Assembly (NCBI GenBank): GCA_043750035.1
Contig: JAYVCI010000246.1
Span: 1 to 58,369 of the forward strand
Direction of reading: 5' to 3'
DNA: 58,369 nucleotides
Source: Chitinophagaceae bacterium
Lineage (GTDB): Bacteria; Bacteroidota; Bacteroidia; UKL13-3
The position numbers and the translations under genes are program-made. The notes under the pieces were generated by a model. That model saw nothing but the letters and a program-made list of their open reading frames with translations. It did no database searches and had not been told where the DNA came from. Below, in pieces: positions 11,681-34,737 of this stretch; the first letter of the stretch is position 1; each line of letters starts with the position of its first letter.

Positions 11681-11683
11681 GAT

Positions 11684-13065: not shown

Positions 13066-13077
13066 TGACTACAATCA
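13066..13077. promoter_or_regulatory. Crp/Fnr-type box, one mismatch (TGACTACAATCA), upstream of the fasciclin gene
   Basis: The flanks match the nosC box (TATGAcTACAATCATA). The centre is 34.5 nt from the TTTG of a perfect TACTTTTG motif (13102..13109). Confidence 0.5.
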
Positions 13078-13134
13078 TACAAACATACTTGTACCATCCA
13101 ATACTTTTGCATCCAGTTAAACAAAACATATATT

Positions 13135-14539: not shown

Positions 14540-14932
14540 TTATATAATACTTTTATTCCCCTCCCCAAACAACTTAATCTGCATTACCGTAGAAATACTC
14601 AATGCTCTTTGCTTGGCAAGTTCAGCATTTCCTCCTTTAAATAATTCATCAATGGTGGACACAAATAATTCATTCCATCGTTCGAAGTGGCTTGGTGTTA
14701 AAGGTGTAACGCGGTGCAGGTGGCGGTGGATATTCATAGGGTCGCCAGTGTAATTGCCAGTGTAGAATATCGCATTCTCCCAAAAATCGAACATGATGGG
14801 CAAATGTTTTTCCCAGTTTACTTTTGCTATATCATTAAATATATAGCCAATAACATCATCCTTTTTTACCTTGTCGTAGAAAGTAGTTATGGCAAGTTCT
14901 ATATCTTTTCTATTTTTCAAATCTTTTTTCAT
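14540..14932 (-). CDS. Group III truncated haemoglobin-like protein
   Basis: 130 aa resembling group III (Ctb/HbP-type) truncated globins (ITTFYDKVKKDDVIG...FDFWENAIF...PMNIHRHLH...HFERWNELF). It lies 18 nt downstream of nosY on the same strand. Confidence 0.7.
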   Translation of the reverse strand: MKKDLKNRKDIELAITTFYDKVKKDDVIGYIFNDIAKVNWEKHLPIMFDFWENAIFYTGNYTGDPMNIHRHLHRVTPLTPSHFERWNELFVSTIDELFKGGNAELAKQRALSISTVMQIKLFGEGNKSII

Positions 14933-17681: not shown

Positions 17682-18704
17682 TTACTTAATTAGTTGGTCC
17701 CAGAATACTTCTTCTCCTCCTAAATTGTTTTTATAATAAATCATGCTGTCTTTCTCCTTATATGCTGCCACATTACCTTCCATTGGGCTTCTCAGGTCTT
17801 CACTTCTCATAAGGAAACATTGTTTCTGGTTAACCAATTCGTGTTTACCACAAAAATCTGATATATATATATCTTTGATATCTTTGGAATCTATAGCTCC
17901 AGATTTGATATCAGAAATTAAACAATGGGCTTCGTCATATTTGTGTATTTTCCCTTTTTTAGTGATTGCTTCAGTTCCAAATCTGACATCGCTGATGGCC
18001 ATTTTACAGAACTGGCATTTGTCAACTCCTACTTTTATAGGATCAGGTGAGACATTGCAACTTGGTAAGGTTAATACAATAAAAAGTAATAAAACTGTTG
18101 CTATATTTTTTTTAGTGGTCTTCATTTTCTTCATTTTTCTATAATCCATTATTATGCAAAACAATAACATTACACCCACACTTACAAATATCCAGCCCCC
18201 AATATGGGGTACAGAATAAGCCCCAAAATTCAATAATTGCTTGAATCCGATTAAAGGTGGCTGGTAGGTCATATCTGGCACTATGATAGCAGCTTCCGGG
18301 TTTAAGTTATGTCCGTAATCGTATTCCCATTTCCAAAAATCTGCCATTGCTATTATACCAAAAACTAAGAACATTACAAACAAAATATTCATCAATTTTC
18401 TGTTGCGAAGTATTGCAACTATTATAAATAAACCGGCAAAAGAACTAATAATATAGGGTAGGATGGTAAACTCGATAAAATCTTCTGTATGCAAAGTTTT
18501 CATGCCTATATAATGATTCAACCCATTGATGATATCTACATTGCCACCAAGTTTATCAGTATATATTAATAACCGCAACCCTTCTGGATATTGGGGTGCA
18601 TCTAAATCTATCATCCACATAGGTACATATAATACTACTATTAATGCTACCCCACATAAGGCCAATACAATTCTAATCCAGTTTTGAAATGGATGCTTTT
18701 TCAT
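17682..18704 (-). CDS. nosL: nosB-like membrane domain and NosL copper chaperone lipoprotein in one reading frame
   Basis: 340 aa. Residues 1-190 are polytopic membrane. Residues 191-340 start with a complete lipoprotein signal (MKKMKTTKKNIATVLLLFIVLTLPSC) followed by NosL motifs (DKCQFCKMAISDVRFG, YDEAHC). The internal ATG is at 18132..18134. Confidence 0.7.
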   Translation of the reverse strand: MKKHPFQNWIRIVLALCGVALIVVLYVPMWMIDLDAPQYPEGLRLLIYTDKLGGNVDIINGLNHYIGMKTLHTEDFIEFTILPYIISSFAGLFIIVAILRNRKLMNILFVMFLVFGIIAMADFWKWEYDYGHNLNPEAAIIVPDMTYQPPLIGFKQLLNFGAYSVPHIGGWIFVSVGVMLLFCIIMDYRKMKKMKTTKKNIATVLLLFIVLTLPSCNVSPDPIKVGVDKCQFCKMAISDVRFGTEAITKKGKIHKYDEAHCLISDIKSGAIDSKDIKDIYISDFCGKHELVNQKQCFLMRSEDLRSPMEGNVAAYKEKDSMIYYKNNLGGEEVFWDQLIK

Positions 18705-18797: not shown

Positions 18798-20786
18798 CTA
18801 TGGATTTGGATTATCCGCTTTGGGCTGGTTTTTACCTGTACTAAATAATAAGGGCACATTGCTTCCTGCTGGAGACACTCTTATATAACCCGACATTTCT
18901 TGGTGCAATGCACTACAAAAATCTGTGCAATACATTGGGAATATTCCAACTTTATCTGGCACCCATTTTAAGGTTTGTGTTTCGCCGGGCATAATGAGTA
19001 ATTCAGCATTGGCGGCACCTTTTACAGCAAATCCATGAGGCACATCCCAATCTTGTTCTAGGTTGGTAATATGGAAATATACCACATCACCCATCCGTAT
19101 GCCTTCTATATTATCAGGTGCAAAATGTGAACGGATAGCTGTGGCATATATATGAACTTCATTGCCTTGTCGTACCACTTTGCTCATTGCTTCTCCTTTG
19201 GTAACATAAGGATGCATATTTTCTTCTATTTTAAATATTTTTACCTGTTTATTTTTTAATAAATCTGCCGTTACTGCTTGTGCATAATGTGGCTCCCCAA
19301 TTGTAGGATAATCTAATATCAATTGCATCTTTTCGCCACTGATATCATATAACTGTGCACTTTGTGCAAGCTCTGGGCCTGTTGGCAGATAGCGGTCTTT
19401 GGTAATTTTATTATAGGCTATTAAGTATTTTGCATTGGGGGTTTTGCTATCCCCACCTGGTATACATAAGTGCCCTACAGAATAATAAGTAGCTACCCTG
19501 TCCAATACTTTTAAATCTTTAATATTCCACTTTACCACTTCCGAAGAAACGAACATAGATGTATATGCATTTCCTTTTCCATCAAATTCAGTATGCAATG
19601 GGCCTAAGCCTGGTTTTTTAACTTCGCCATATAATGCAGCTTCGTATTTAATTACAGGGATACCATCATAGTCGCCCGCGAAATTTTTAGCAGCTATCGC
19701 ACTTTGTATTTTATCAAAACTAAATACTGGAATTAATGCAGCTAGTTTACCACTGCCTACTATATACTCGCCAGTTGGGTCCACATCGCATCCGTGTGGC
19801 GATTTGGGACAAGGGATAAAGTAACATATATCTTTCAATTCTTTTGAATCGAGAACGATTACTTCTGTTTTAATTTCGGATGTTGCACTGTGTTTTTTAT
19901 CACTATATACATTATGGGCATATTTTACCGCTTGCTTTCTTCCTTTTCCAGCTTTTAAATATTCTTCGGCTTTTTTCCAATTTACGGCCATTATAAAATC
20001 TTTGTCTTTTTGTGAAGCATTTACTTCTAATAAAGTATTGGCTTGTTCGGTATTATAACATGAGAAGAAAAACCAACCATGTGATTTCCCCTTACCAGCA
20101 CGACTCAAATCGAAGTTTACCCCTGGGCATTGAATTTGGAAAGCTATATCCATTTTGCCATCTTCCTTACCCACACTTACAAAACTTAAAGTCCCTTTAA
20201 AATTTTTCTTATAGGTATTGATAGGCACATCTCCATTTACATCATCAGGCGGAACACTAAACCTTGTACCAGCCACTATATACTCCGTGTTTTCTGTAAT
20301 AAAAGGCGAAGAGTGATTGCCGCCACTATTGGGCAACTCGATTATTTCTTGTGTGCGAAAAGTAGTTAAGTCAATACGTGCAATACGGGGTGTATTATTG
20401 GCATTTCCAAACACCCAGCGTCCATCATATTCGCCACCCGTTTTTGAAAGTTGTACATGGTGCAAATCATCCCAAGGCACAAAACCATGTGAGGTGTTTA
20501 GCATAGGTTTGGTTTCTTCTGAATAACCATAACCTTTTTCAGGATCAACAGAAAATACGGGTATTACACGAAGCAAACGACCTGATGGCAAGCCATAAGC
20601 ACTCATTTGCCCACTGAAACCACCACTTACAAAATTATAGAATTCATCATACTTTCCTGGTGCAACATAAGTTTTTGCAGCGGCGTCGCCACTTACAGCA
20701 TTACTTGCATTTTTTGGTTTACAACCACTTGTGGCCATCAATACAACTACAGTTGCAATTGATAGTATATTTAATTTATTTTTCAT
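18798..20786 (-). CDS. nosZ: Nitrous-oxide reductase, clade II (Sec-dependent)
   Basis: 662 aa. The N-terminus is a lipoprotein/Sec signal (MATSGC) with no twin-arginine. It has a seven-blade propeller region and the C-terminal CuA motif CTDFCSALHQEMSGY. Confidence 0.95.
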   Translation of the reverse strand: MKNKLNILSIATVVVLMATSGCKPKNASNAVSGDAAAKTYVAPGKYDEFYNFVSGGFSGQMSAYGLPSGRLLRVIPVFSVDPEKGYGYSEETKPMLNTSHGFVPWDDLHHVQLSKTGGEYDGRWVFGNANNTPRIARIDLTTFRTQEIIELPNSGGNHSSPFITENTEYIVAGTRFSVPPDDVNGDVPINTYKKNFKGTLSFVSVGKEDGKMDIAFQIQCPGVNFDLSRAGKGKSHGWFFFSCYNTEQANTLLEVNASQKDKDFIMAVNWKKAEEYLKAGKGRKQAVKYAHNVYSDKKHSATSEIKTEVIVLDSKELKDICYFIPCPKSPHGCDVDPTGEYIVGSGKLAALIPVFSFDKIQSAIAAKNFAGDYDGIPVIKYEAALYGEVKKPGLGPLHTEFDGKGNAYTSMFVSSEVVKWNIKDLKVLDRVATYYSVGHLCIPGGDSKTPNAKYLIAYNKITKDRYLPTGPELAQSAQLYDISGEKMQLILDYPTIGEPHYAQAVTADLLKNKQVKIFKIEENMHPYVTKGEAMSKVVRQGNEVHIYATAIRSHFAPDNIEGIRMGDVVYFHITNLEQDWDVPHGFAVKGAANAELLIMPGETQTLKWVPDKVGIFPMYCTDFCSALHQEMSGYIRVSPAGSNVPLLFSTGKNQPKADNPNP

Positions 20787-20797
20787 AATATATATTT

Positions 20798-21307
20798 TTA
20801 TTTAATTCCATCATTCTCTCTCATAAACTCTAATAAACTTCTGGCATCATTATCGCTCAAACTTTGATTGGGCATACGCACCAAACACAGTTCTAACAGT
20901 GCCTGAGCCTTTGGGTCTTTGGTAAGCATCTCGTCAGTATTGGTGATAAAATTCATTATCCATGCGGGTTGATAACGTTTGGTTACTCCTTGCCATCCCG
21001 GCCCTACAAGTTTTTCATCCGTTAGTTTATGGCATGAAGAGCATTTTACATCAGAAACCTTTTTACCTGCATCGGCCATATTTTTATCTAGTTTATCGGC
21101 TAGTTTCACATCCGTAAATTTACCTGTTCCTCTGTTTGGGTCGTACGAAGGATTGCCTTTTGATTCAGCGGGTGCTTCCGTACTCGGTTTTGTATTGGGA
21201 TCTTCTGCTGTTTGTTTATCATTGCTCGAAGGGCTACTTGAGCAAGCAACTATAAACATTCCAAAAACCAATATTAGGCTGATTGCAACAATTTTTCTGA
21301 CGGTCAT
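20798..21307 (-). CDS. Monohaem cytochrome c lipoprotein, first gene of the nos operon (nosC-type)
   Basis: 169 aa with the lipobox FIVAC, a low-complexity linker and the haem motif CSSCH. It lies 11 nt upstream of nosZ. Confidence 0.75.
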   Translation of the reverse strand: MTVRKIVAISLILVFGMFIVACSSSPSSNDKQTAEDPNTKPSTEAPAESKGNPSYDPNRGTGKFTDVKLADKLDKNMADAGKKVSDVKCSSCHKLTDEKLVGPGWQGVTKRYQPAWIMNFITNTDEMLTKDPKAQALLELCLVRMPNQSLSDNDARSLLEFMRENDGIK

Positions 21308-21364
21308 AATTTTTTTATCTTTTATTTATATGCAATATTATCGTGAATAAAAGATTGTATTTTA

Positions 21365-21376
21365 TGATTGCAATCA
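21365..21376. promoter_or_regulatory. Crp/Fnr-type box TGATTGCAATCA upstream of nosC
   Basis: Perfect TGAT-N4-ATCA within TATGATTGCAATCATA. The centre is 34.5 nt from the ATTG core of the -7-like TAATATTG (minus strand, 21333..21340), a class II-like position. Confidence 0.6.
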
Positions 21377-21500
21377 TACCACTATATTGTTCTGCGACAC
21401 CCCATTAATTATTTTAGTTCATCAACGCTCTCAAAAATCAATAATAGCATACATTCACAGCATATTGATTGTTATATTTATAACTCAAAAAAATATTTAC

Positions 21501-21512
21501 TGATTTATATCA
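21501..21512. promoter_or_regulatory. Crp/Fnr-type box TGATTTATATCA upstream of the Crp/Fnr gene
   Basis: Perfect palindrome. The centre is 55.5 nt from the TTTG of a perfect TAATTTTG (21558..21565), a class I-like position two helical turns further out. Confidence 0.55.
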
Positions 21513-21584
21513 TAATTGAACCTGTCGAAGGTTATATTCTTTAATTGGGGGCACATCTAATTTTGAACCATTAAAGATACGATT

Positions 21585-22178
21585 ATGATAGATATTAATA
21601 CATTAATTGCTTGGGGTGGTGCTTATAAAAAATATGATGCAGAAGATACTATATTTTTAGAAGAATCTACTTGTTACTATTATTATCAATTAGTTAAAGG
21701 TAAGGTTTTGTGGATGAACATGAACGATGATGGGAAAGAATTTATACAAAACTTGATTGAACCAGATGAATGTTTTGGCGAACTACCCTTGTTTGACGGA
21801 GGCCCGTATGCAGCATCAGCAATTGCTCTAGAAGATTGTATGGTGATAAGACTGCCCCGTGACAGGTTTACTCAACTAATTAAAGAAAACTCAGAAATTC
21901 TTATACATTTTACTTGTTTATTGGCACAAAGACTTAGGTATAAATTCTTATTGCTTAAAACTATTGCATTCGAAAATCCAGAAATGAGAATTTCTACTTT
22001 ATTAAATCATTACAAAAGTACCCACTACAATGTTCCACATCAACCTTTTCAGGTAAATCTTACCCGTCAACAGATTGCGAACATGACCGGACTGAGGGTT
22101 GAAACTGTTATTAGAACAATAAGAAACCTAAATGACAAAGGCGAGTTACGGATAGACCATGGCAAAGTATTTATGTAA
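21585..22178 (+). CDS. Crp/Fnr family transcriptional regulator
   Basis: 197 aa with a cNMP-binding-like beta-barrel (CFGELPLFDGGPY) and a C-terminal HTH with the recognition helix RVETVIRTIRNL (E--xR pattern as in FNR/Dnr). There is no N-terminal Cys cluster for an FNR-type Fe-S centre. Confidence 0.85.
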   Translation: MIDINTLIAWGGAYKKYDAEDTIFLEESTCYYYYQLVKGKVLWMNMNDDGKEFIQNLIEPDECFGELPLFDGGPYAASAIALEDCMVIRLPRDRFTQLIKENSEILIHFTCLLAQRLRYKFLLLKTIAFENPEMRISTLLNHYKSTHYNVPHQPFQVNLTRQQIANMTGLRVETVIRTIRNLNDKGELRIDHGKVFM

Positions 22179-22181
22179 TTA

Positions 22182-22193
22182 TGATTTCAATCA
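22182..22193. promoter_or_regulatory. Crp/Fnr-type box TGATTTCAATCA upstream of the Nor-like module
   Basis: Perfect palindrome 4 nt after the regulator's stop codon. A perfect TAAATTTG abuts it (22194..22201). A weaker TAATTTG (22219..22225) has its TTTG 34.5 nt from the centre. Confidence 0.55.
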
Positions 22194-22238
22194 TAAATTT
22201 GCAATAGGGTTTTTTGGGTAATTTGCCCTAAATATTCA

Positions 22239-23447
22239 ATGAAGTTTGTCAATCACAAATGGCTTCGGATAGCCCTCATCAACTTAAATATTATTGCTTT
22301 GATAGGTGTAGTACTTAGGTACAAAATTGCATTCTCCCTTCCATTTATCGATCAAAAACAATTATTGCAAGGGCATTCTCATTTTGCATTTGCTGGTTGG
22401 ATTACACAAGCTTTGATGGCTTTATTGGTTGATTACTTATACAGAAGTGGCAATGAAAATGCATATAAAAAATATGCGTGGATTTTAATAGCGAATTTAA
22501 TTACGGCTTATGGTATGTTGGCTGCTTTTCCAGTAGCAGGTTATAATATTTTTTCAATTACTTTTTCTACACTCTGTGTTTTCGTTTCTTATATATTTAC
22601 TGTTGTATATTGGAAAGATTTGAATAAACTGAAACGAGATGCCGTGAGCCATTTGTGGTTTAAAGCAGCTTTGGTATTTAATGTAATGTCTTCCCTTGGG
22701 GCATTTAGTTTGGCGTATATGATGGCCAATCAATTAGTTCAACAAAAGTGGTATCTGTCATCTATATATTTTTTTTTACATTTTCAATATAATGGTTGGT
22801 TCTTTTTTGCTTGCATGGGTTTATTAATGGGTAAACTATATACATTGGGAATCGTAAATGAAGCATTTAAGAAAATATTTTGGCTCTTTTTAATTGCTTG
22901 TGCCCCTGCTTATTTTCTATCGGTACTGTGGATGTCTATCCCTATCTGGGTTTATTGGATTGTAGTATTTTCTGCATTGGCACAAGTTGGTGCCTGGATT
23001 TGGCTGGTAAAAATTATAGCACCTATCAAAAAAAATATTTCTACCCTCGGAAAGGTATTATTGATAGTATCTGGAATTGCATTAAGTGTAAAATTACTGC
23101 TCCAACTTGGCTCTACCTATCCGCCATTAAGTAATTTGGCATTTGGGTTTAGGCCTATCGTTATTGGTTACCTGCATTTGGTGCTATTGGGTGTTATTAC
23201 TGTTTTTATTTTGGGATATATAGTTTCGCAAAAATTGATTCTATTAACTAAAATAAGCAAAATTGGAATCATTATTTTTACATTTGGGATATTCTTTAAC
23301 GAATTATTATTAATGGTTCAAGGGATAGCCGCATTAAAATATGAAAGTGTTCCGTACATTAATGAAATGCTTTTATTTGCAGCATTGATAATGTTTATTG
23401 GCACGGCACTTTTGGTACGAGGTCAATTTAGAACTATGTTGAATTAG
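22239..23447 (+). CDS. Polytopic membrane protein of unknown function (at best NnrS-like)
   Basis: 402 aa with ~12 TM segments and membrane-embedded His motifs (GHSHFAFAGW, LHFQYNGW, GYLHLVLLG). It is the first gene of the Nor-like module. Confidence 0.6.
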   Translation: MKFVNHKWLRIALINLNIIALIGVVLRYKIAFSLPFIDQKQLLQGHSHFAFAGWITQALMALLVDYLYRSGNENAYKKYAWILIANLITAYGMLAAFPVAGYNIFSITFSTLCVFVSYIFTVVYWKDLNKLKRDAVSHLWFKAALVFNVMSSLGAFSLAYMMANQLVQQKWYLSSIYFFLHFQYNGWFFFACMGLLMGKLYTLGIVNEAFKKIFWLFLIACAPAYFLSVLWMSIPIWVYWIVVFSALAQVGAWIWLVKIIAPIKKNISTLGKVLLIVSGIALSVKLLLQLGSTYPPLSNLAFGFRPIVIGYLHLVLLGVITVFILGYIVSQKLILLTKISKIGIIIFTFGIFFNELLLMVQGIAALKYESVPYINEMLLFAALIMFIGTALLVRGQFRTMLN

Positions 23448-23458
23448 TATATACAAAA

Positions 23459-23878
23459 ATGAAAAAATCCTGGCAAAAATATATTTTTACAATATTAGTA
23501 ATTGCTTTTTTTAGTTATTCTATACTATTATATTCAAATGATAATTATAACTATCAAGTTAACTATGACAAGGCAAAGGCAATAGAAGGGCAGTTGGTAT
23601 GGCAAAAATATAATTGCCAAAGCTGCCATCAATTATATGGACTAGGTGGCTATCTAGGCCCTGACCTAACGAATATAATATCAGCCAAAGGAAAAGATAA
23701 ACAATATATTTCTGCTATGGTTAAGTCTGGTTCCAAACAAATGCCCGCATTCAATCTTCAAAAAAATGAAAATGATAATTTGATTGCATTTCTAAAAGCA
23801 ACAAATGCTTCGGGAACAGCCGATCCCAGAACCTATACCGCTCATTTCAATGGAATGATTACAAAAAATGGAAACTAA
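23459..23878 (+). CDS. Membrane-anchored monohaem cytochrome c (NorC/CcoO-like small subunit)
   Basis: 139 aa with an N-terminal TM anchor, the haem motif CQSCH and a candidate distal Met in KQMPAF. Confidence 0.75.
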   Translation: MKKSWQKYIFTILVIAFFSYSILLYSNDNYNYQVNYDKAKAIEGQLVWQKYNCQSCHQLYGLGGYLGPDLTNIISAKGKDKQYISAMVKSGSKQMPAFNLQKNENDNLIAFLKATNASGTADPRTYTAHFNGMITKNGN

Positions 23879-25205
23879 AGAACGTCCTAATCTAGGTCTA
23901 TATTTTCTTGCATCTGCTTTATTGATGTTGATATTGGGATTGATTTTCGGGGTATTGGCTGCTCTTAATTATATAATACCAGGCTTCTCACAAGATTATC
24001 TGGGTTTTATACAATTACGACCTTTGCATGTTTCATGTATTATATTTTTTATATTGCTAGGAGCAAGCGGTTGTGTATATTGTGGGTTGCAGGCTATCCA
24101 TCCCAAAACAGTCTCAAAACCATTGGCCTATATTCAATTAATATTATGGTGGATCGCCATTATTTGTATACTAAGTTCTTATTTTCAGCAACAATTTGGA
24201 GGAAGAGAATATTGGGAATTCCCTCCTAGATATGCAATCATCATCGTATTGGCATGGTTAATTTTTCTAGTTAATTTTTTTATCGTTGCCGTTCAAATAA
24301 AAAAATGGCCTGTATATATTTGGATGTGGATGACAGGAATTTTGTTTTTTCTTTTCACCTTTATCGAAAATTATCTTTGGGAATTTCCATACTTTAGAGA
24401 GCACTTTATCAAAGATCTCACAATTCAATGGAAGGCAAATGGCTCATTAGTAGGTTCGTGGAATCAACTTATATATGGTACTGCATTCTACTTAATGGAA
24501 CGCATAAGTGGCAATCGCAGCAACGCAAAATCAAACTTGGCTTTTGCATTGTATTTCTTGGGATTGTTTAATTTGATGTTCAATTGGGGGCATCATATTT
24601 ATACATTACCTACCGAAAGCTATATTCGATATGTGAGTTATATTGTAAGCATGACCGAATGGATATTTTTACTCCGGATTTTTTATACTTATAGAAATAC
24701 TTTAACAACTGCAAAAAAGAATTTTCATTATTTCCCCTATCGTTTTTTAATTGCTTCCGAAATCTGGATACTATTAAACATGGCACTTGCCATCATCATG
24801 TCAGTGCCTGCATTCAACTTATACACGCATGGCACACATGTAACAGTAGCACATGCTATGGGAACTACCATAGGAATAAATACAATGATATTACTAGCAG
24901 CTTTCTTGGAGTTTTTTATGCCCCATAATGAGGAATATATCAAGGGTTCAAAAGTATTAAAAATATTGTATTGGGTTACGCAGTTTTCCTTATTAATTTT
25001 TTGGCTCACTTTAATTATCATTGGAATTAAAAAGGGATTGTGGCAAATGGGGGCTCAAACTGCTTCTTTTGGTATGATGATGCAAAGCCTTCAAAATTGG
25101 CTTTATATATTTGTATTTGCCGGAAGTATTTTAATGGTGTCAATAAGTATGATTTCGATTGTTTTACTTAAGTCATTTTTTAGAAAAAAAGAAAGTGATT
25201 CGTAA
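23868..25205 (+). CDS. Haem-copper oxidase superfamily subunit I, divergent NorB/CcoN-like
   Basis: 445 aa with 12 TM segments. It has RPLH54, NWGH242H243IYT and HGTHVTVAH329AM331. The start overlaps the upstream cytochrome c gene by 11 nt. Confidence 0.75.
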   Translation: METKERPNLGLYFLASALLMLILGLIFGVLAALNYIIPGFSQDYLGFIQLRPLHVSCIIFFILLGASGCVYCGLQAIHPKTVSKPLAYIQLILWWIAIICILSSYFQQQFGGREYWEFPPRYAIIIVLAWLIFLVNFFIVAVQIKKWPVYIWMWMTGILFFLFTFIENYLWEFPYFREHFIKDLTIQWKANGSLVGSWNQLIYGTAFYLMERISGNRSNAKSNLAFALYFLGLFNLMFNWGHHIYTLPTESYIRYVSYIVSMTEWIFLLRIFYTYRNTLTTAKKNFHYFPYRFLIASEIWILLNMALAIIMSVPAFNLYTHGTHVTVAHAMGTTIGINTMILLAAFLEFFMPHNEEYIKGSKVLKILYWVTQFSLLIFWLTLIIIGIKKGLWQMGAQTASFGMMMQSLQNWLYIFVFAGSILMVSISMISIVLLKSFFRKKESDS

Positions 25206-25254
25206 ACCAATTTCATCATTCATAACTAGGTTCATTGGTTTCATACTTAAGATG

Positions 25255-25266
25255 TGACCATAAGCA
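25255..25266. promoter_or_regulatory. Degenerate Crp/Fnr-type box (TGACCATAAGCA, two mismatches) upstream of the RIC gene
   Basis: The centre is 34.5 nt from the TTTG of TTTATTTG (25291..25298). The spacing matches the strong sites, but the box itself is weak. Confidence 0.3.
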
Positions 25267-25352
25267 TAAAATCGTGCATAGATTATAACCTTTATTTGTA
25301 TTGGGTTACTAAATATTTCCCAATTACTATTTAAACTTTATAATATATAAAA

Positions 25353-26303
25353 ATGGAAGTATATAATATCCCAATTCTTGATGTAACTGTGCTACCAGCA
25401 CAATTAAAGCATGAAACTATCTTTAATAGGTATGATGCTCTCAATCAAAGCGAAAGTATCATTATTCACAACGACCATGACCCAAAGCCTTTATACTACC
25501 AGCTTCTTGCTGAAAGAGGTAATAGTTTTAATTGGGAATATTTATTAAATGGTCCTACGTATTGGGAAGTAAAAATTACCAAAAGAAATATAGAAGACAG
25601 TGGTAAAACTGTGGGACAAATTGCAGCCAGCGATTATAGAAAAGCCAAAGTATTTGCGAAATATGGAATTGATTTCTGTTGTGGGGGCAAAAAAATGTTA
25701 AAAGAAATTTGCGATGCCCAAGGTATAGATATATTACAAATTGAAAAAGATATTCAACAAATAGACAATCAAAATAGTGGCAAAGAGTTGTTATACAATG
25801 ATTGGAGTTTAGATTTCTTGATAGATTATATTCTGAATACCCATCATGCGTATATAAGAAAAGCAATTCCACAATTAATACAATATGCCGATAAAGTAGC
25901 CTGTGTCCACAGTAACAACCATCCCGAACTGATTACAATACAACAAATGTTATATGATGTTATCAATGAATTGACAAACCACATGAAGAAAGAAGAAATG
26001 GTACTTTTTCCGTATATAAAAAATTTAACCAAATATAATGATGGGGAAATTTCTAATTACGGAAGCGTTCAGAATACCATTAATATGATGGAAATGGAAC
26101 ATGAAGTTGTAGGGGAACTTTTTGAGAAAATTAATGCATTGTCCAACAACTATAGCCTTCCAACTGATGCTTGTGCCAGTTATACCTTGTTTTACAATCT
26201 ACTTAAAGAATTTGAAAATGATTTGCATTTGCATGTACACTTGGAAAATAATATACTGTTTCCAAAAGCTATACTGTTGGAGAAATCAACGCATTTTAAT
26301 TAA
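25353..26303 (+). CDS. Iron-sulfur cluster repair di-iron protein (RIC/ScdA/YtfE family) with an N-terminal DUF2249-like domain
   Basis: 316 aa. Residues ~5-75 resemble DUF2249 (HNDHDPKPLYYQL). The ScdA_N motif DFCCGG and hemerythrin-like His/Glu motifs (HHAYIRK, EEMVLFP, EHEVVGE, HVHLENNILFP) follow. Confidence 0.8.
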   Translation: MEVYNIPILDVTVLPAQLKHETIFNRYDALNQSESIIIHNDHDPKPLYYQLLAERGNSFNWEYLLNGPTYWEVKITKRNIEDSGKTVGQIAASDYRKAKVFAKYGIDFCCGGKKMLKEICDAQGIDILQIEKDIQQIDNQNSGKELLYNDWSLDFLIDYILNTHHAYIRKAIPQLIQYADKVACVHSNNHPELITIQQMLYDVINELTNHMKKEEMVLFPYIKNLTKYNDGEISNYGSVQNTINMMEMEHEVVGELFEKINALSNNYSLPTDACASYTLFYNLLKEFENDLHLHVHLENNILFPKAILLEKSTHFN

Positions 26304-26312
26304 TTGATAGTA

Positions 26313-27689
26313 CTACAACTTCTCAAAATGAGCTGTAAAATGTCTCAACAGCTTTGCTTCTTTTATTATTTTGTATCCTTTAGTATTTGCTTTATTTTTC
26401 AATACTTCATCAAATACTTCTATCACATAATCTATATGACTTTGGGTATATACCCTGCGAGGAATTGCCAGTCGTACCAGTTCCATGGCGGCCGGGATTA
26501 ATTCCCCATTTTCATCATATTTGCCAAACATCACAGAACCAACTTCTACACATCTGATTCCACCAATTCTATATAATTCACATACCAATGCCATGCCTGG
26601 GTATTCATTAAGTGGAATATGATTATACAGTTTTGCAGAATCAATATATACTGCATGGCCACCTATGGGATACATCACAGGCACACCTTTCTCTCTTAAT
26701 TTTTCTCCAAGATATGCAGTACTTTTTATTCTATAATTCAAATAATCTTTATCAAATACTTCGTTCAACCCCACGGCTATAGCTTCCATATCACGACCAC
26801 TTAAGCCACCATAAGTAGTAAACCCTTCGGTAACAATTAGTAGATTTGTACATTCTTGAGCAATAATTTCATCTTTCAAAGCCAAAAAACCACCCATATT
26901 TACCAAGGCATCTTTTTTAGCACTCATAATACAGCCATCTGCTAGCTTAAACATTTCCTTTGCAATTTCCTTATAAGTATAATTGTCAAATCCTGCTTCT
27001 CGGTGTTTGATAAAATAACTATTCTCAGCAATACGACAACAATCTATGATATATAATACTTTATATTTTTTACAAATATCAGATACTTCCTTTGCATTTT
27101 GCATACTCACAGGCTGCCCACCACCACTGTTATTGGTAACGGTTAATATTACTGCTCCAATATTTTCTGCACCATGTTCTATGATAGTTTTTTCTAATAT
27201 TTCAGTATCAATATTTCCCTTAAATGGATAATACGCTTCATGATTTTTCGATTCATAAATGCCAATATCAATAGCCGTTGCACCACTAAATTCAATATTT
27301 GCACGGGTAGTGTCGAAATGGGCATTGCTGATAAATATTTTCCCTTTGCCTCCCAAAAAACTATATAAAATTCTTTCGGCGGCTCTTCCTTGGTGGGTTG
27401 GCAAAATATAAGTATATGAAGTTAGCTCATGCACAGCATTGTAAAAACGCTCCCAGCTTTTGGCACCTGCATACGATTCATCACCCCGCATCATGGCAGC
27501 CCATTGTTCATTGCTCATGGCAGAGGTGCCGCTATCTGTTAAAAAGTCAATAATTACTTGCTCACTTTTCAATAAAAATGGATTAGAGTGAGCTGCTTCT
27601 AAATACTTTTTACGTTCGCTTTCGGTACTCATTAATATTGCCTCTACCGATTTAATTTTAAAAGGTTCGATAATTGTTTTAAATGACAT
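26313..27689 (-). CDS. tnaA: Tryptophanase (beta-eliminating lyase family)
   Basis: 458 aa with the PLP-lysine motif SAKKDALVNMGG, the TDSGTSAM and PTHQGRAAE motifs, and a TnaA-like C-terminus LRHFTAHFEKL. Tyrosine phenol-lyase is not fully excluded. Confidence 0.8.
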   Translation of the reverse strand: MSFKTIIEPFKIKSVEAILMSTESERKKYLEAAHSNPFLLKSEQVIIDFLTDSGTSAMSNEQWAAMMRGDESYAGAKSWERFYNAVHELTSYTYILPTHQGRAAERILYSFLGGKGKIFISNAHFDTTRANIEFSGATAIDIGIYESKNHEAYYPFKGNIDTEILEKTIIEHGAENIGAVILTVTNNSGGGQPVSMQNAKEVSDICKKYKVLYIIDCCRIAENSYFIKHREAGFDNYTYKEIAKEMFKLADGCIMSAKKDALVNMGGFLALKDEIIAQECTNLLIVTEGFTTYGGLSGRDMEAIAVGLNEVFDKDYLNYRIKSTAYLGEKLREKGVPVMYPIGGHAVYIDSAKLYNHIPLNEYPGMALVCELYRIGGIRCVEVGSVMFGKYDENGELIPAAMELVRLAIPRRVYTQSHIDYVIEVFDEVLKNKANTKGYKIIKEAKLLRHFTAHFEKL

Positions 27690-31362: not shown

Positions 31363-32949
31363 TTATAATACAGAAAGCAAATAAGCATATTCCTCCTTTT
31401 TGCCTTGCTCAAAATTCTCAGGTGAAATAGCTTCCCGATAATGCGTACCAATGCTTCCTTCCCTTAACAATGCAGCTTGTATAATAAGCAAACCTGCTTG
31501 CACCATATTCAACAATTCGTAATATTTCCTTGAATTCTGATTGTATTTCATTATTTTTAATAATTCATCTTCATACTGTTGTATCGAATTTTTTGCTGTT
31601 TCTAGATTTTTCTCATTTCTCACTATTCCTGCATTATCCCACATTAATGATTGCAATTTTTCAATATCAAAAGATATATGAAGATTAAGTTCGATACCTA
31701 TCGAATTCATTTTTTTGGCAATAGGATACCTGGATCTATCCCCAAAGTGATGCGGTACTATATGTTTGTGTTTTATATAGGAAGCTGTAGCATCTGCAAA
31801 CACCAATCCTTCTAGCAATGAATTACTGGCCAGCCTGTTAGCTCCATGCACACCAGTACATGCTACTTCTCCAATGGCATATAAATTTGGTATTGTTGTT
31901 TCCCCATTCAAATTGGCAACTACTCCCCCACACATATAATGAGCTGCTGGAACTATTGGAATTATTTGTGTACTTATATCAATTCCATACTTTTTGCATG
32001 TATTATAAATGTATGGAAATTCAGTTTGTAATCTCTCATTTCCAATAGTTGTTGCATCAAGATATAAAAAGTTAGCTTGGTCTTTACGCATTTCCTTTAT
32101 CATACTTCGGGTAACTATATCACGTGGTGCTAACGACCCCATAGGGTGGTACTTGTGCATGAAACTGTTTCCATCCTTTTTTTTCAATTCGGCTCCCGCA
32201 CCACGCAGAGCTTCACTAATTAGTATATTTTCTTCGCGTTTATGCAAGTATAGCATGGTAGGATGAAACTGTAGAAATTCCATATTAGAAATTTTTGCCC
32301 CCACCCTATAAGCTAGTGCATAACCGTCGCCAGTTGCGGTATTAGGGTTGGTGTTTAATAAATAAAGATAACCTACCCCGCCAGAAGCTAAAACTACAAT
32401 ATCCGCATAAAAATTGTAACTTACATTTTCTGTTTGGTTCAGAATAGTTGCTCCGCAGCAATTGTCATTTTGCACAATTAAATCAAGTACAAAATGATTT
32501 TCGTATATATATATATTGGGATGTTTGCGAACAATGTCAACCAAAGTTTCGATAACTGCTTTTCCTGTTTCGTCTTTTGAGTGTACAATGCGGTCGTGCC
32601 TATGTCCTCCTTCTCTTGACAAGTCCAGAATATTTTTTTCGTTTTTGGTGAACTTAATTCCCATTTCTATCAATTCTAAAATACAATGTCTTGCATTTTT
32701 GATCATAAAATGTACTGCTTTTTCATCACACAAACCTGCACCTGTAATAATTGTATCTTTTATATGTTCATCTGCGGAATCATTATCCGCAAAGGGTGCT
32801 GCAATTCCGCCCTTAGCTTGGTATGAATTAGAATTATATAAACCATCCTTAACTATTAGGTGTACATGAGCATATTCAGCGGCTTTGATGGCAAATAACA
32901 ATCCACTAATTCCGCCTCCAATACATAAAATATTTAATTTCGGATTCAT
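31363..32949 (-). CDS. nadB: L-aspartate oxidase
   Basis: 528 aa with the FAD motif CIGGGISGL and the succinate dehydrogenase / fumarate reductase flavoprotein fold (HPTML, GANRLASNSLLEG). Confidence 0.9.
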   Translation of the reverse strand: MNPKLNILCIGGGISGLLFAIKAAEYAHVHLIVKDGLYNSNSYQAKGGIAAPFADNDSADEHIKDTIITGAGLCDEKAVHFMIKNARHCILELIEMGIKFTKNEKNILDLSREGGHRHDRIVHSKDETGKAVIETLVDIVRKHPNIYIYENHFVLDLIVQNDNCCGATILNQTENVSYNFYADIVVLASGGVGYLYLLNTNPNTATGDGYALAYRVGAKISNMEFLQFHPTMLYLHKREENILISEALRGAGAELKKKDGNSFMHKYHPMGSLAPRDIVTRSMIKEMRKDQANFLYLDATTIGNERLQTEFPYIYNTCKKYGIDISTQIIPIVPAAHYMCGGVVANLNGETTIPNLYAIGEVACTGVHGANRLASNSLLEGLVFADATASYIKHKHIVPHHFGDRSRYPIAKKMNSIGIELNLHISFDIEKLQSLMWDNAGIVRNEKNLETAKNSIQQYEDELLKIMKYNQNSRKYYELLNMVQAGLLIIQAALLREGSIGTHYREAISPENFEQGKKEEYAYLLSVL

Positions 32950-32958
32950 AGTTTTAAC

Positions 32959-33960: not shown

Positions 33961-34014
33961 AATGTGTAGCTATAAAAATTCCTCAAAATTGATGCTACTT
34001 TAAAATTAATTTTA

Positions 34015-34026
34015 TGATTTATATCA
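34015..34026. promoter_or_regulatory. Crp/Fnr-type box TGATTTATATCA upstream of nadA
   Basis: Identical 12-mer to the box at 21501. The centre is 33.5 nt from the TTTG of CAATTTTG (minus strand, 33984..33991). Confidence 0.5.
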
Positions 34027-34187
34027 GTTTTTTGTTGAGTTATATCATTTTTATTCGCCATATCATATTTGAGTTTCGCATTTCTGCATAATCATTAAGA
34101 GAATCCTATATTATAGCATTGATTTGGTTACTGTTTTCCTAAAAAAAAATCATTTAAAAATTTCCAAAGCCCATTTTTATATTTTAA

Positions 34188-34199
34188 TGATTCAAATCA
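34188..34199. promoter_or_regulatory. Crp/Fnr-type box TGATTCAAATCA upstream of the thioesterase / 598-aa gene pair
   Basis: Perfect palindrome. The centre is 33.5 nt from the TTTG of TAAACTTTG (TTTG at 34227..34230). Confidence 0.5.
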
Positions 34200-34258
34200 T
34201 AAAATCATAATCGTATATAATTAAACTTTGCAGGTTGAATTATGGAATTAAATAATAC

Positions 34259-34726: not shown

Positions 34727-34737
34727 ATAACGACAAC

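What the first reader, a model, noticed from the sequence alone, without database searches (positions are those of the whole stretch)
22239..25205. Nor-like operon whose haem-copper subunit I appears to lack two canonical ligands (possible uncharacterised HCO family)
Three co-directional genes sit directly after the Crp/Fnr gene and next to the nos operon.
(i) A 402-aa, ~12-TM protein with membrane-embedded His motifs (GHSHFAFAGW, LHFQYNGW, GYLHLVLLG). I cannot place it; it is NnrS-like at best.
(ii) A 139-aa membrane-anchored monohaem cytochrome c (CQSCH, QMPAF) resembling NorC/CcoO.
(iii) A 445-aa, 12-TM haem-copper oxidase subunit I whose ATG overlaps the cytochrome c stop by 11 nt.
I aligned subunit I by eye to motifs recalled for cNOR NorB (WWVVHLWVEG, GHHYFW, HGTQLTAAHGHM) and cbb3 CcoN (WWYGHNAVGF, HH, GHVH). 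Three elements are present: the helix-II haem His (RPLH54), the HH pair (NWGH242H243IYT) and the high-spin haem His (VAH329). Two are not. The first CuB/FeB His position reads IQWKAN191GSLVG, with no His and without the cNOR glutamates. The second His of the H-x-H haem pair is Met (H329-A-M331, codon 24858..24860).
This predicts a two-His active-site metal and a His/Met low-spin haem, which matches none of cNOR, qNOR or cbb3. The small subunit is NorC-like, not CuA-type as in the alternative NOR families proposed within the A/B-type branches. The context (nos, Crp/Fnr, RIC) points to NO/N2O or micro-oxic chemistry.
Basis: partly seen in the sequence, partly recalled or inferred. Interest (0 to 1): 0.75.

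Follow-up and report, generated by a model that had tools for sequence, protein, structure and literature searches.

The report
Variant nitric-oxide-reductase-like haem enzyme family
The window encodes a real, widely conserved relative of bacterial nitric oxide reductase whose catalytic subunit has lost one metal-binding histidine and swapped a haem-binding histidine for methionine, so it belongs to a large, untested enzyme family that databases currently mislabel as NorB or cbb3 oxidase.

Summary
The three co-directional genes exist. The 445-aa protein is a haem-copper-oxidase subunit I (PF00115, 105 bits). The 139-aa protein is NorC-like. Both ligand substitutions are confirmed by pairwise, profile and multiple alignments.

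One correction: the canonical helix-VI His column is G192, not N191. N191 is variable. The conserved neighbour is K189.

Across 72 full-length representatives of ≤50%-identity clusters:
- the His column is Gly (55/55) or Asp (17/17);
- the second haem-b His is Met (71/72);
- K189/G192 covaries with H189/D192.

The cNOR Ca2+ site and most periplasmic proton-path residues are retained. E211 and E215 are lost.

The family is monophyletic and sister to cNOR, at 17-20% identity. It is probably the cNOR-related "putative N2O reductase" family mentioned briefly by Murali et al. 2024. I could not verify that.

Only the cytochrome c + subunit I pair is conserved (79/80 loci). nosZ adjacency is rare (4/80). 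The 402-aa gene is adjacent in only 5 loci; by predicted fold it is itself oxidase-subunit-I-like.

My best guess is a cytochrome-c-dependent NO reductase. Here it appears to be co-regulated with nosZ through a shared FNR-type box. The substrate is unproven.

The parts
23868..25205 (+). 445-aa haem-copper-oxidase superfamily subunit I (NorB-like catalytic subunit) of a distinct family sister to cNOR
   Evidence: PF00115 scores 105.5 bits, while ccoN TIGR00780 scores only 46.8 against a cutoff of 583. The AF2 model has pLDDT 84.5 and pTM 0.88; Foldseek gives TM 0.82-0.84 to cbb3 CcoN and cNOR NorB. The family profile scores cNOR 70.9 bits, above cbb3 at 54 and qNOR at 27. In an NJ tree the family is monophyletic and sister to cNOR.
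24432..24443 (+). Codons K189-A190-N191-G192. G192 occupies the column of the canonical helix-VI CuB/FeB His. K189 is the conserved candidate replacement ligand or proton donor.
   Evidence: The H207 column of PaNorB is G in 55/55 representatives of subgroups 1 and 2 and D in 17/17 of subgroup 3. K189 in subgroups 1 and 2 covaries with H189 in subgroup 3. N191 is variable. AF2 confidence is below 50 for residues 183-192.
24591..24596 (+). Codons H242-H243, the retained helix-VII His pair of the non-haem metal site
   Evidence: These align with PaNorB H258/H259 and are invariant in 72/72 representatives.
24852..24860 (+). Codons H329-A330-M331. H329 is the proximal His of the high-spin haem. 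Met replaces the second axial His of the low-spin haem.
   Evidence: H347 of PaNorB aligns with H329 (72/72). H349 aligns with M331 (Met in 71/72).
24027..24029 (+). Codon H54, the helix-II axial His of the low-spin haem
   Evidence: It aligns with PaNorB H60 and is invariant.
24657..24659 (+). Codon E264, equivalent to cNOR E280 (the buried Glu of the periplasmic proton path)
   Evidence: It is E in 55/55 representatives of subgroups 1 and 2 and absent in subgroup 3 and in cbb3.
23459..23878 (+). 139-aa membrane-anchored monohaem cytochrome c, the NorC-like electron-entry subunit, translationally coupled to subunit I
   Evidence: The best PDB hits are NorC 3o0r_C (2.2e-11) and 4xyd_B. C53, C56, H57, M95, G63 and Y65 are at least 95% conserved in 79 family copies. 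G63 and Y65 align with the NorC Ca2+ ligands G71 and Y73. The gene lies directly upstream of subunit I in 79/80 loci.
22239..23447 (+). 402-aa membrane protein of an unnamed family with a predicted oxidase-subunit-I-like fold. It is the first gene of the local operon but not a conserved partner of the pair.
   Evidence: No Pfam, NCBIfam or PDB sequence hit was found, yet it has more than 6400 homologues, all named 'hypothetical'. The AF2 model has pLDDT 85.7. The top 50 Foldseek hits are all HCO subunit I, with TM 0.59-0.77 and best E 4e-6. hhalign against the subunit I family gives probability 0.5%. It is adjacent in 5/80 loci and elsewhere is usually paired with a Crp gene.
21585..22178 (+). 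Crp/Fnr-family regulator lacking an FNR-type Cys cluster; the likely activator of the flanking operons
   Evidence: It carries PF00027 and PF13545. No N-terminal Cys cluster is present in the translation. The recognition helix reads VETVIR, with E and R spaced as in the FNR E--SR motif (inference from the sequence).
22181..22194 (.). FNR-type palindrome ATGATTTCAATCAT, 45 bp upstream of the 402-aa gene
   Evidence: It is one of three perfect ATGATTnnAATCAT sites in 58 kb. Five sites match with up to 1 mismatch, against 1.1 expected; 0/100 shuffles reach five.
21364..21377 (.). FNR-type palindrome ATGATTGCAATCAT, about 57 bp upstream of the divergent cytochrome c-nosZ operon
18798..21307 (-). 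Clade II (Sec-type) nosZ preceded by a lipoprotein cytochrome c. This is the neighbouring N2O-reduction operon, which carries the same box.
   Evidence: TIGR04246 scores 933 bits and PF00034 is present. nosD, nosF and nosY lie downstream.
25353..26303 (+). RIC/ScdA di-iron Fe-S repair protein with an N-terminal DUF2249 domain; a nitrosative-stress gene downstream of subunit I
   Evidence: TIGR03652 scores 239 bits, with PF10006, PF04405 and PF01814 present. A RIC gene is present in 22/80 related loci.

Best explanation
Genes 23459-25205 encode a two-subunit membrane haem enzyme descended from the cNOR lineage of the haem-copper oxidase superfamily. It belongs to a separate family that is large and found mostly in Bacteroidota.

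Proposed route (inferred)
1. A periplasmic electron donor reduces the NorC-like haem c (C53-x2-C56-H57, M95).
2. Electrons pass to a low-spin haem b ligated by H54 and M331. This should raise its potential relative to bis-His.
3. They then reach a high-spin haem b3 (H329). It faces a remodelled non-haem site made of H242 and H243, plus K189 reaching into the space left by G192.
4. A Ca2+ bridges the two haems and the two subunits.
5. Protons come from the periplasm through the retained cNOR-type network (D183, S261, E264, S312, N317, H321, T323). The enzyme is therefore probably not electrogenic.

Most likely substrate (inferred)
NO, reduced to N2O as detoxification or low-level respiration. 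In this organism the product would be handed to the adjacent clade II NosZ. Both operons carry the same FNR-type box next to a Crp/Fnr regulator.

Shown versus inferred
- Shown: family placement, ligand pattern, subunit pairing and the shared box.
- Inferred: metal identity, the role of K189, proton direction and substrate.

Confidence is about 0.9 for the structural and family description and about 0.4-0.45 for NO as substrate. The figure given is for the whole statement.
For: Fold and family
- PF00115 scores 105 bits.
- Foldseek gives TM 0.82-0.84 to CcoN and NorB.
- The family profile hits cNOR best, at 70.9 and 56 bits.
- The NJ tree places the family sister to cNOR.

NorC-like partner
- Its best PDB hits are NorC, with the His/Met haem c ligands and the Ca2+ ligands G63/Y65 conserved.
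- It is adjacent to subunit I in 79/80 loci.

Residues retained from cNOR
- R51, H54, R113, E114 (Ca2+ ligand E135), D183, S261, E264 (E280), S312, N317, H321, T323 and H329.

Remodelled site
- H207 becomes G, E211 is deleted, E215 becomes N199 and H349 becomes M.
- K189/G192 in subgroups 1 and 2 covaries with H189/D192 in subgroup 3.

NO and low-oxygen context
- RIC lies directly downstream here.
- Across related loci, RIC occurs in 22/80 and Rrf2 in 30/80, and anaerobic NrdD/G lies nearby.
- The same perfect ATGATTnnAATCAT box sits upstream of both the nosZ operon and this operon.

Literature
- Bacteroidota carrying 'cnorB' plus clade II nosZ but no nir genes are reported, with cnorB repressed by high O2 (PMC11879220). 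Whether those genes belong to this family was not checked.
Against: - No member has been assayed.
- The FeB ligands that define NO reductases of this lineage (third His, E211) and E215 are missing.
- No nirK or nirS was seen in the window or among the recurrent neighbours.
- nosZ is near in only 4/80 loci.
- The commonest neighbours are amino-acid catabolic genes: tryptophanase, tyrosine phenol-lyase and proline dehydrogenase.
- Subgroup 3 sits in housekeeping contexts.
- The only published proposal for what is probably this family is N2O reduction, not NO reduction (PMC11214002).
- AF2 is unconfident exactly at residues 183-192, so K189 geometry is untested.
Confidence: 0.45

Rival explanations
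1. It is a membrane-bound, cytochrome-c-dependent nitrous oxide reductase. This is the 'N2O red' HCO family proposed by Murali et al. 2024 to explain the sulfide- and acetylene-insensitive membrane N2O reductase of Flexibacter (Solitalea) canadensis.
For: - Murali et al. describe an HCO family without the active-site Tyr, closely related to cNOR, present in 293 GTDB genomes. They tie it to a Bacteroidota organism (PMC11214002).
- The present family fits that description. It is sister to cNOR, has no Tyr at the cross-link column, and is found mainly in Bacteroidota.
- The site lacks the carboxylates typical of FeB.
- MbnP/MbnH-type genes occur near the pair in 12-13/80 loci. Their link to copper handling is from my own knowledge.
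Against: - Identity with the published family is unverified, because the SI and leaf lists are not held.
- The published proposal is itself a conjecture without an assay.
- This genome already has a complete clade II nos cluster next door under the same box. That makes a sequential NO->N2O->N2 arrangement more economical than two N2O reductases.
- There is no known precedent for N2O reduction at a haem/non-haem site.
Confidence: 0.15
2. It is a low-oxygen O2-scavenging or terminal oxidase. It disposes of electrons from amino-acid catabolism under micro-oxic conditions.
For: - In most Bacteroidota the pair sits co-directionally inside [unk601]-[NadA-NadB]-tryptophanase-tyrosine phenol-lyase-[ADP-forming acetyl-CoA synthetase]-cytC-HCO-proline dehydrogenase.
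- Subgroup 3 occurs in Verrucomicrobiota and Planctomycetota without N-oxide genes.
- The non-haem site uses only neutral N-ligands, as CuB does.
- cNOR itself has slow O2 reductase activity (my own knowledge).
Against: - There is no Tyr at either cross-link position, and no third His to cross-link to.
- The cNOR-type periplasmic proton residues are retained, rather than a cytoplasmic channel.
- FNR-type box, RIC, Rrf2 and anaerobic ribonucleotide reductase neighbours point to anoxic or nitrosative conditions.
Confidence: 0.2
3. It is an ordinary cNOR or cbb3 oxidase, and the missing ligands are an alignment artefact.
For: Database names for relatives are 'cbb3-type cytochrome c oxidase subunit I' (NCBI) and 'nitric oxide reductase subunit B' (JGI).
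Against: - Three independent alignment methods agree on the substitutions.
- No His exists in W188-G196.
- Met331 is present in 71/72 divergent representatives.
- ccoN TIGR00780 scores 46.8 against a cutoff of 583.
- Identity is 17-20% to cNOR and about 16-17.5% to cbb3, and the clade is separate.
Confidence: 0.02
4. It catalyses other chemistry or acts as a sensor. Examples are peroxide, nitrite or hydroxylamine turnover, NO dismutation, or a role tied to the indole and phenol released by the adjacent lyases.
For: - The ligand set is unprecedented in this branch of the superfamily.
- There is a strong and unexplained linkage to tryptophanase and tyrosine phenol-lyase (57/80 loci).
- Di-haem peroxidase (CCP_MauG) neighbours occur in 13/80 loci.
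Against: No positive evidence supports any specific alternative. The retained electron-entry subunit, two haems and proton path look like those of a small-molecule reductase.
Confidence: 0.15

Closest known systems
cNOR (NorBC cytochrome-c-dependent nitric oxide reductase; structures 3O0R, 4XYD)
   Same: - Two subunits, with a membrane-anchored monohaem NorC-type cytochrome c encoded directly upstream.
- A 12-helix subunit I.
- Haem b3 proximal His.
- The helix-VII His pair.
- Ca2+ ligands (NorB E135, NorC G71/Y73).
- R57, R134, D198, S277, E280, N335, H339 and T341 equivalents.
- No cross-linked Tyr.
- It is the best sequence-profile match.
   Different: - The third FeB His (H207) is Gly.
- The FeB Glu (E211) column is deleted.
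- E215 is Asn.
- The second haem b His (H349) is Met.
- A conserved Lys (K189) appears one turn before the lost His.
- NorC K53 and E57 are both Gln.
- No norQ or norD gene is adjacent.
- Identity is only 17-20%, and the clade is separate.
cbb3-type cytochrome c oxidase CcoN (C-family; 3MK7, 6XKW, 9G6B)
   Same: - Same branch of the superfamily.
- Equally good structural match (TM 0.82-0.84).
- Ca2+-binding Glu.
- The Q-W motif at the start of helix VI.
- No insertion at the E211 position.
   Different: - No helix-VI His.
- No helix-VII cross-link Tyr (L236/M237 at that column).
- His/Met rather than bis-His haem b.
- A NorC-like partner instead of CcoO/CcoP.
- TIGR00780 scores far below its cutoff.
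'N2O red' HCO family of Murali et al. 2024 (PNAS 121:e2316422121)
   Same: It is described as an HCO family lacking the active-site Tyr, closely related to cNOR within the C-family branch, linked to a Bacteroidota organism, and a few hundred genomes in size. All of this is compatible with the present family.
   Different: Identity could not be checked. The main text gives no ligand pattern, and the supplementary data are not held. The proposed function (N2O reduction) is conjectural and differs from my preferred reading.
nNOR, gNOR and eNOR (B-family-derived putative or confirmed NO reductases)
   Same: They give precedents for the same kinds of change. nNOR has a His/Met low-spin haem. gNOR replaces one active-site His with Asp, as subgroup 3 of this family does (PMC11214002).
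   Different: Those families derive from B-type oxidases and have cupredoxin (CuA-type) subunit II. This family lies in the C/cNOR branch with a cytochrome c subunit, so the resemblance is convergent.
NnrS (for the 402-aa protein)
   Same: A roughly 400-aa, 12-helix membrane protein with conserved His residues, encoded next to a Crp/Fnr-family regulator and expressed with N-oxide genes. The resemblance is recalled from knowledge of the NnrR-NnrS pair.
   Different: No match to Pfam NnrS was found in the window protein or in any of 51 relatives, even at E<=10. The predicted fold instead matches oxidase subunit I.

Membership tests
cNOR (NorBC) | Membrane-anchored monohaem NorC subunit (CxxCH, Met axial ligand) encoded next to NorB | tested here: met
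   The best PDB hits are NorC 3o0r_C (2.2e-11) and 4xyd_B. C53, C56, H57 and M95 are conserved. The gene is adjacent to subunit I in 79/80 loci.
cNOR (NorBC) | Inter-haem Ca2+ site (NorB E135; NorC G71 and Y73) | tested here: met
   E114 is present in 70/72 representatives. G63 and Y65 are at least 95% conserved and align with G71 and Y73.
cNOR (NorBC) | Non-haem FeB ligated by three His (H207, H258, H259) and Glu (E211) | tested here: not met
   The H207 column is G192 (G in 55/55 representatives of subgroups 1 and 2; D in subgroup 3). The E211 column is a gap in all 72. H242 and H243 are present.
cNOR (NorBC) | Bis-His low-spin haem b (H60, H349) | tested here: not met
   H54 is present, but the H349 column is M331 (Met in 71/72).
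cNOR (NorBC) | Conserved active-site and proton-path glutamates E215 and E280 | tested here: inconclusive
   E215 becomes N199, which is invariant in subgroups 1 and 2. E280 is retained as E264 in subgroups 1 and 2 but lost in subgroup 3.
cNOR (NorBC) | norQ/norD accessory genes with norCB | tested here: not met
   The neighbours in the window are Crp, the 402-aa protein, RIC and tryptophanase. None of the recurrent neighbour clusters that I annotated in the 80 loci is an AAA or VWA protein, but not every cluster was annotated. The rest of the genomes was not searched.
cbb3 oxidase (C-family) | CuB with three His, and a His-Tyr cross-link with the Tyr on helix VII | tested here: not met
   There is no helix-VI His. 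The Tyr column holds L236 or M237, depending on the alignment.
cbb3 oxidase (C-family) | CcoN equivalog score, and CcoO/CcoP partner subunits | tested here: not met
   TIGR00780 scores 46.8 bits against a cutoff of 583. For the cytochrome c, ccoP TIGR00782 scores 31.5 against 180. The partner's best match is NorC.
qNOR | Single polypeptide of about 750 aa with a fused, haem-free NorC-like N-terminal domain and a quinol site | tested here: not met
   The subunit I is 445 aa and has a separate haem-binding cytochrome c. It is the weakest profile match among the C-branch structures (3ayf, 27 bits).
B-family-derived NORs (eNOR, sNOR, gNOR, nNOR, bNOR) | Cupredoxin-type subunit II and descent from B-type oxidases | tested here: not met
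   The partner is a c-type cytochrome. ba3 structures match worse (TM 0.59-0.72 against 0.81-0.84), and no ba3 chain appears in the sequence-profile hits.
'N2O red' HCO family (Murali et al. 2024) | HCO lacking the active-site Tyr, phylogenetically next to cNOR in the C-family branch | tested here: met
   There is no Tyr at either cross-link position. The family is sister to cNOR in the NJ tree, and cNOR is the best profile hit.
'N2O red' HCO family (Murali et al. 2024) | Membership of the authors' clade (their HMM or leaf list), presence in Solitalea canadensis, and N2O reductase activity | not testable with these tools
   The supplementary files are not held. The single genome-collection scan returned only the 80 closest loci, all from MAGs. 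The cluster look-up found no isolates.
NnrS (402-aa protein) | Match to the NnrS family model (Pfam NnrS) | tested here: not met
   No Pfam or NCBIfam hit for the window protein. 0 of 51 relatives hit NnrS at E<=10.
Haem-copper oxidase subunit I superfamily (402-aa protein) | Sequence-detectable homology to PF00115, and the six canonical His ligands | tested here: not met
   hhalign against the subunit I family gives probability 0.5%. There is no PDB sequence hit, and PF00115 is hit by 1/51 relatives at E=3.7. Only the fold matches: the top 50 Foldseek hits are all subunit I, with TM 0.59-0.77. His residues are present on helices 2, 6 and 10 only.

The most novel reading that the evidence does not exclude
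The family carries a new kind of binuclear centre for this superfamily: a high-spin haem facing a two-His-plus-Lys site (or His/Asp in subgroup 3), fed by a His/Met haem b. It performs chemistry that canonical enzymes do not. The leading candidate is the long-unexplained acetylene- and sulfide-insensitive membrane N2O reductase of Bacteroidota. If so, thousands of genes now counted as norB or ccoN in nitrogen-cycle surveys would be a hidden N2O sink or another unrecognised N-oxide activity.
Probability: 0.2. Interest if true: 0.85.

Novelty: new variant of a known kind. Interest (0 to 1): 0.58.

Why it matters
NO and N2O turnover by non-denitrifying Bacteroidota matters for greenhouse-gas budgets. 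Gene inventories label this family as norB (IMG) or cbb3 subunit I (NCBI), yet it fails defining tests for both. Knowing its substrate would correct those inventories.

It would also test the one published conjecture of a second, NosZ-independent N2O reductase.

For bioenergetics, the family shows which cNOR features survive when the FeB ligands are replaced. Its two covarying ligand solutions (K189/G192 and H189/D192) offer a natural experiment on how the non-haem site tunes chemistry.

The family is abundant, with more than 3100 clusters at 90% identity. Closely related sequences are available for expression.

Tried and rejected
- NnrS assignment of the 402-aa protein. No Pfam or NCBIfam hit, and 0/51 relatives hit NnrS. 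Rejected.
- Sequence homology of the 402-aa protein to subunit I. hhalign gives probability 0.5% and there is no PDB sequence hit. Only fold similarity remains.
- Verifying identity with the 'N2O red' family of Murali et al. The supplements are not held. The preprint and the FIND preprint give no details. The BBA 2022 paper is not held. Further literature searches found nothing more.
- Looking for a cultured host. The genome scan returned only MAGs among the 80 best loci. A cluster look-up of 10 proteins found no isolate names. The link to Solitalea canadensis could not be tested.
- Sigma-70 promoter and terminator scan of 21200-26400. Counts were no better than shuffles, as expected for Bacteroidota.
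- N191 as the ligand-equivalent residue. Rejected in favour of G192 by the profile and multiple alignments, and N191 is not conserved.
- A conserved 'nos-linked three-gene module'. Rejected by the context counts.
- nirK or nirS in the window. None was found among the ORFs scanned, but not every ORF was scanned.
AF2 confidence is also low at residues 183-192.

Full report
**What is there**

The window carries three co-directional ORFs exactly as described:
- 22239-23447, 402 aa;
- 23459-23878, 139 aa;
- 23868-25205, 445 aa.

The subunit I start overlaps the cytochrome c stop by 11 nt. Upstream is a Crp/Fnr-family gene (21585-22178). Divergent from it are a lipoprotein cytochrome c and a Sec-type clade II nosZ (TIGR04246, 933 bits). 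These are followed by a 340-aa membrane protein, then nosD, nosF and nosY. Downstream is a RIC/ScdA Fe-S repair gene fused to DUF2249. T9SS sorting domains elsewhere in the window fit a Bacteroidota origin.

**The 445-aa protein**

- It matches PF00115 over its whole length (105.5 bits). It scores only 46.8 bits on the cbb3 CcoN equivalog model, whose cutoff is 583.
- The AlphaFold2 model, built from 72 homologues, is confident overall (pLDDT 84.5, pTM 0.88). It is below 50 at residues 183-192.
- Foldseek matches cbb3 CcoN and cNOR NorB equally well (TM 0.82-0.84). qNOR and A/B-type oxidases match less well.
- A profile of the family hits cNOR NorB best (4xyd 70.9 bits, 3o0r 56), then cbb3 (54-45), then qNOR (27).

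**The ligand question**

Three methods agree: phmmer, profile hmmsearch, and MAFFT L-INS-i with two cNOR and two cbb3 references.

| PaNorB residue | Role | This protein |
|---|---|---|
| H60 | haem b | H54 |
| H258, H259 | FeB | H242, H243 |
| H347 | haem b3 | H329 |
| H349 | second haem b ligand | M331 |
| H207 | helix-VI metal ligand | G192 (profile and multiple alignments) |

No His exists anywhere in W188-G196, so the substitution is real.

The cNOR FeB glutamate E211 falls in a gap. E215 is N199. The cbb3 cross-link Tyr column holds L236 or M237.

**Family-wide pattern**

An exhaustive search of 1.84 billion cluster representatives found only 426 at E<=0.001 and 255 at E<=1e-10. The family is therefore well separated from the far larger cNOR and cbb3 families. 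I aligned 72 full-length representatives:

| Position | Subgroups 1+2 (n=55) | Subgroup 3 (n=17) |
|---|---|---|
| H54, H242, H243, H329 | invariant | invariant |
| 331 (H349 column) | Met 54/55 | Met 17/17 |
| 192 (H207 column) | Gly 55/55 | Asp 17/17 |
| 189 | Lys | His |
| 264 (cNOR E280) | Glu | lost |
| 244 | variable (I/T/V) | His in 14/17, giving HHH |

N191 is variable (Y, N, L, I and others). This covariation argues that positions 189 and 192 act together at the non-haem site. K189 lies three residues, about one helical turn, before the vacated His position. That it reaches into the site is my inference; I could not measure it.

An NJ tree makes the three subgroups monophyletic and sister to cNOR, with cbb3 as outgroup. 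Mean identity is 17-20% to cNOR and about 16-17.5% to cbb3. This tree is crude and needs a proper maximum-likelihood analysis.

**What is retained from cNOR**

- The small subunit's best structural-database matches are NorC (3o0r_C, 2.2e-11; 4xyd_B).
- Its haem ligands (C53, C56, H57, M95) are at least 95% conserved in 79 copies. So are G63 and Y65, which align with the NorC Ca2+ ligands G71 and Y73.
- In subunit I the equivalents of R57, R134, E135 (Ca2+), D198, S277, E280, T330 (as Ser), N335, H339 and T341 are conserved.
- By my knowledge of cNOR structures, these residues form the Ca2+ bridge and the periplasm-facing proton network. I therefore infer that electron entry, haem arrangement and periplasmic proton supply work as in cNOR. 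Only the non-haem site and the haem b ligation have been redesigned.

**Genomic context**

I compared 80 related loci, all Bacteroidota MAGs.

| Gene | Loci of 80 |
|---|---|
| cytochrome c directly upstream of subunit I | 79 |
| beta-eliminating lyase | 57 |
| proline dehydrogenase | 32 |
| Rrf2 regulator | 30 |
| RIC | 22 |
| 402-aa gene within 8 kb | 13 (adjacent only in the 5 closest) |
| Crp | 7 |
| nosZ within 8 kb | 4 |

The lyases are tryptophanase and a bona fide tyrosine phenol-lyase (TIGR02618, 744 bits, above its cutoff). The typical co-directional order is:

[unknown 600-aa protein]-[NadA-NadB]-tryptophanase-tyrosine phenol-lyase-[ADP-forming acetyl-CoA synthetase]-cytC-HCO-proline dehydrogenase.

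Rrf2, RIC, thioesterase, MbnP/di-haem peroxidase and anaerobic ribonucleotide reductase genes lie nearby. Subgroup 3 members come from Verrucomicrobiota, Planctomycetota and others. They keep the cytC-HCO pair but sit among housekeeping genes. The nos adjacency seen here is therefore a local arrangement, not a family trait.

**Local regulation**

A perfect palindrome ATGATTnnAATCAT, with an FNR-type TGAT-N4-ATCA core, occurs three times in 58 kb:
- about 57 bp upstream of the cytochrome c-nosZ operon (21364);
- 45 bp upstream of the 402-aa gene (22181);
- between nadA and the thioesterase/unknown-600-aa genes (34187).

A one-mismatch copy lies upstream of the fasciclin gene. With up to one mismatch there are five sites against 1.1 expected, and 0 of 100 shuffles reach five. 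The adjacent regulator lacks an FNR Cys cluster but keeps the E...R spacing of the FNR recognition helix (sequence). I infer that this organism expresses the 402-aa gene, cytC, HCO and nosZ together under low oxygen or NO. Similar boxes occur upstream of the same neighbour genes in some related loci.

**The 402-aa protein**

- It has no Pfam, NCBIfam or PDB sequence match, and NnrS is not hit by any of 51 relatives.
- It has more than 6400 homologues, all named 'hypothetical'.
- Its AF2 model (pLDDT 85.7) matches oxidase subunit I exclusively in the top 50 Foldseek hits (TM 0.59-0.77, best E 4e-6).
- Profile-profile comparison with the subunit I family finds nothing.
- Its conserved His residues sit on helices 2 (H46, H48), 6 (H181) and 10 (H313). 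These are the three pseudo-symmetric helices that carry ligands in oxidases. The helix-7 pair is absent.
- I read it as a very divergent oxidase-fold protein that may bind haem or metal. It is usually partnered with a Crp gene rather than with the cytC-HCO pair. Its function is open.

**Comparison with the literature**

Murali et al. 2024 (PMC11214002) list an HCO family 'closely related to cNOR' and lacking the active-site Tyr. They suggest it might be the sulfide- and acetylene-insensitive membrane N2O reductase of Flexibacter canadensis, and they count it in 293 GTDB genomes. Its position, taxon and size fit the present family. The main text gives no ligand pattern, however, and the supplements are not held, so identity is probable but unproven.

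The same paper gives precedents for both types of change. nNOR has a His/Met haem b. gNOR has a His-to-Asp replacement. Both families are B-type derivatives with cupredoxin subunits, so the resemblance is convergent.

An activated-sludge study reports Bacteroidota with 'cnorB' plus clade II nosZ and no nir genes, with cnorB repressed by oxygen (PMC11879220). Whether those genes belong to this family was not checked.

**Function**

The family description is solid. The substrate is not. My rough weighting is:
- NO reduction, about 0.4-0.45. For it: cNOR descent with the electron and proton paths retained, RIC and Rrf2 neighbours, and co-regulation with nosZ here, giving a sequential NO->N2O->N2 route in a genome region without nir.
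- O2 scavenging, about 0.2. For it: the catabolic operon context and neutral N-ligands. Against it: no Tyr cross-link.
- N2O reduction, about 0.15. It is the only published conjecture, but it would be redundant with the adjacent NosZ.
- Other chemistry, the remainder.

The loss of H207, E211 and E215 is a real argument against simple cNOR-type chemistry.

**Verdict**

However, it is not a nos-linked three-gene module, and it was probably already flagged as a sequence family.

Noticed in passing
L006-L075 (e.g. L081:4961-12516); window 26313-27689, 31363-36534: In most related Bacteroidota the cytC-HCO pair sits in a co-directional block: unknown 600-aa protein, NadA, NadB, tryptophanase, tyrosine phenol-lyase, ADP-forming acetyl-CoA synthetase, cytC, HCO, proline dehydrogenase. 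A beta-eliminating lyase is present in 57/80 loci. Why an NOR-like enzyme travels with aromatic amino-acid lyases is unexplained.
   Followed up: partly
window 21364-21377, 22181-22194, 34187-34200 (and 13065-13078 with 1 mismatch): Three perfect copies of the FNR-type palindrome ATGATTnnAATCAT lie upstream of the nosZ operon, the 402-aa/cytC/HCO operon and the thioesterase/unknown-600-aa genes. A near-copy lies upstream of the fasciclin gene. This suggests one local regulon. With up to 1 mismatch there are five sites against 1.1 expected.
   Followed up: partly
window 34738-36534 (homologues e.g. L008:4338-6143): A 598-aa protein with no Pfam, NCBIfam or PDB sequence match recurs near the HCO pair in 34/80 loci. 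Here it lies downstream of an FNR-type box.
   Followed up: partly
window 22239-23447: The 402-aa 'hypothetical' membrane protein is predicted to have an oxidase-subunit-I fold. Its conserved His residues are on helices 2, 6 and 10, yet no sequence similarity to the superfamily or to NnrS is detectable. In other genomes it is usually paired with a Crp/Fnr gene.
   Followed up: yes
L081:274-1566 (minus strand): A further divergent 430-aa protein has a sub-threshold PF00115 match (29 bits, helices VI-X region). It carries an HxH...GW motif resembling that of the 402-aa protein. It is encoded beside DUF1858/DUF2249 and RIC genes.
   Followed up: partly
P0338-P0386; loci L084-L086: A third subgroup of the family occurs in Verrucomicrobiota, Planctomycetota and some others. 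It has His at 189, Asp at the lost-His column and an HHH triplet on helix VII, and it lacks the E280 equivalent. It keeps the cytC-HCO pair but has no N-oxide gene neighbours.
   Followed up: partly
window 25353-26303: The RIC/ScdA di-iron repair protein carries an extra N-terminal DUF2249 domain. The same fusion is seen in L081.
   Followed up: no
window 14540-14932: A 130-aa ORF at the distal end of the nos cluster gives a weak bacterial-globin match (PF01152, E=0.003). It may be a truncated haemoglobin.
   Followed up: no
window 17682-18704: A 340-aa membrane protein between nosZ and nosD has a weak C-terminal NosL-like match (E=2e-4). It may be a fused accessory protein of the clade II nos cluster.
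   Followed up: no
L011, L030, L042, L043, L054, L064, L069, L081 and others: MbnP plus di-haem peroxidase (CCP_MauG/MbnH-like) gene pairs lie within a few kb of the HCO pair in 12-13 of 80 loci. These are linked to copper handling (from my own knowledge).
   Followed up: no
window 10520-12965 and 56802-58131: Tyrosine-degradation genes lie nearby (4-hydroxyphenylpyruvate dioxygenase-like and homogentisate dioxygenase-like). So does a molybdopterin oxidoreductase plus cytochrome b561 pair (MsrPQ-like). These appear ordinary.
   Followed up: no
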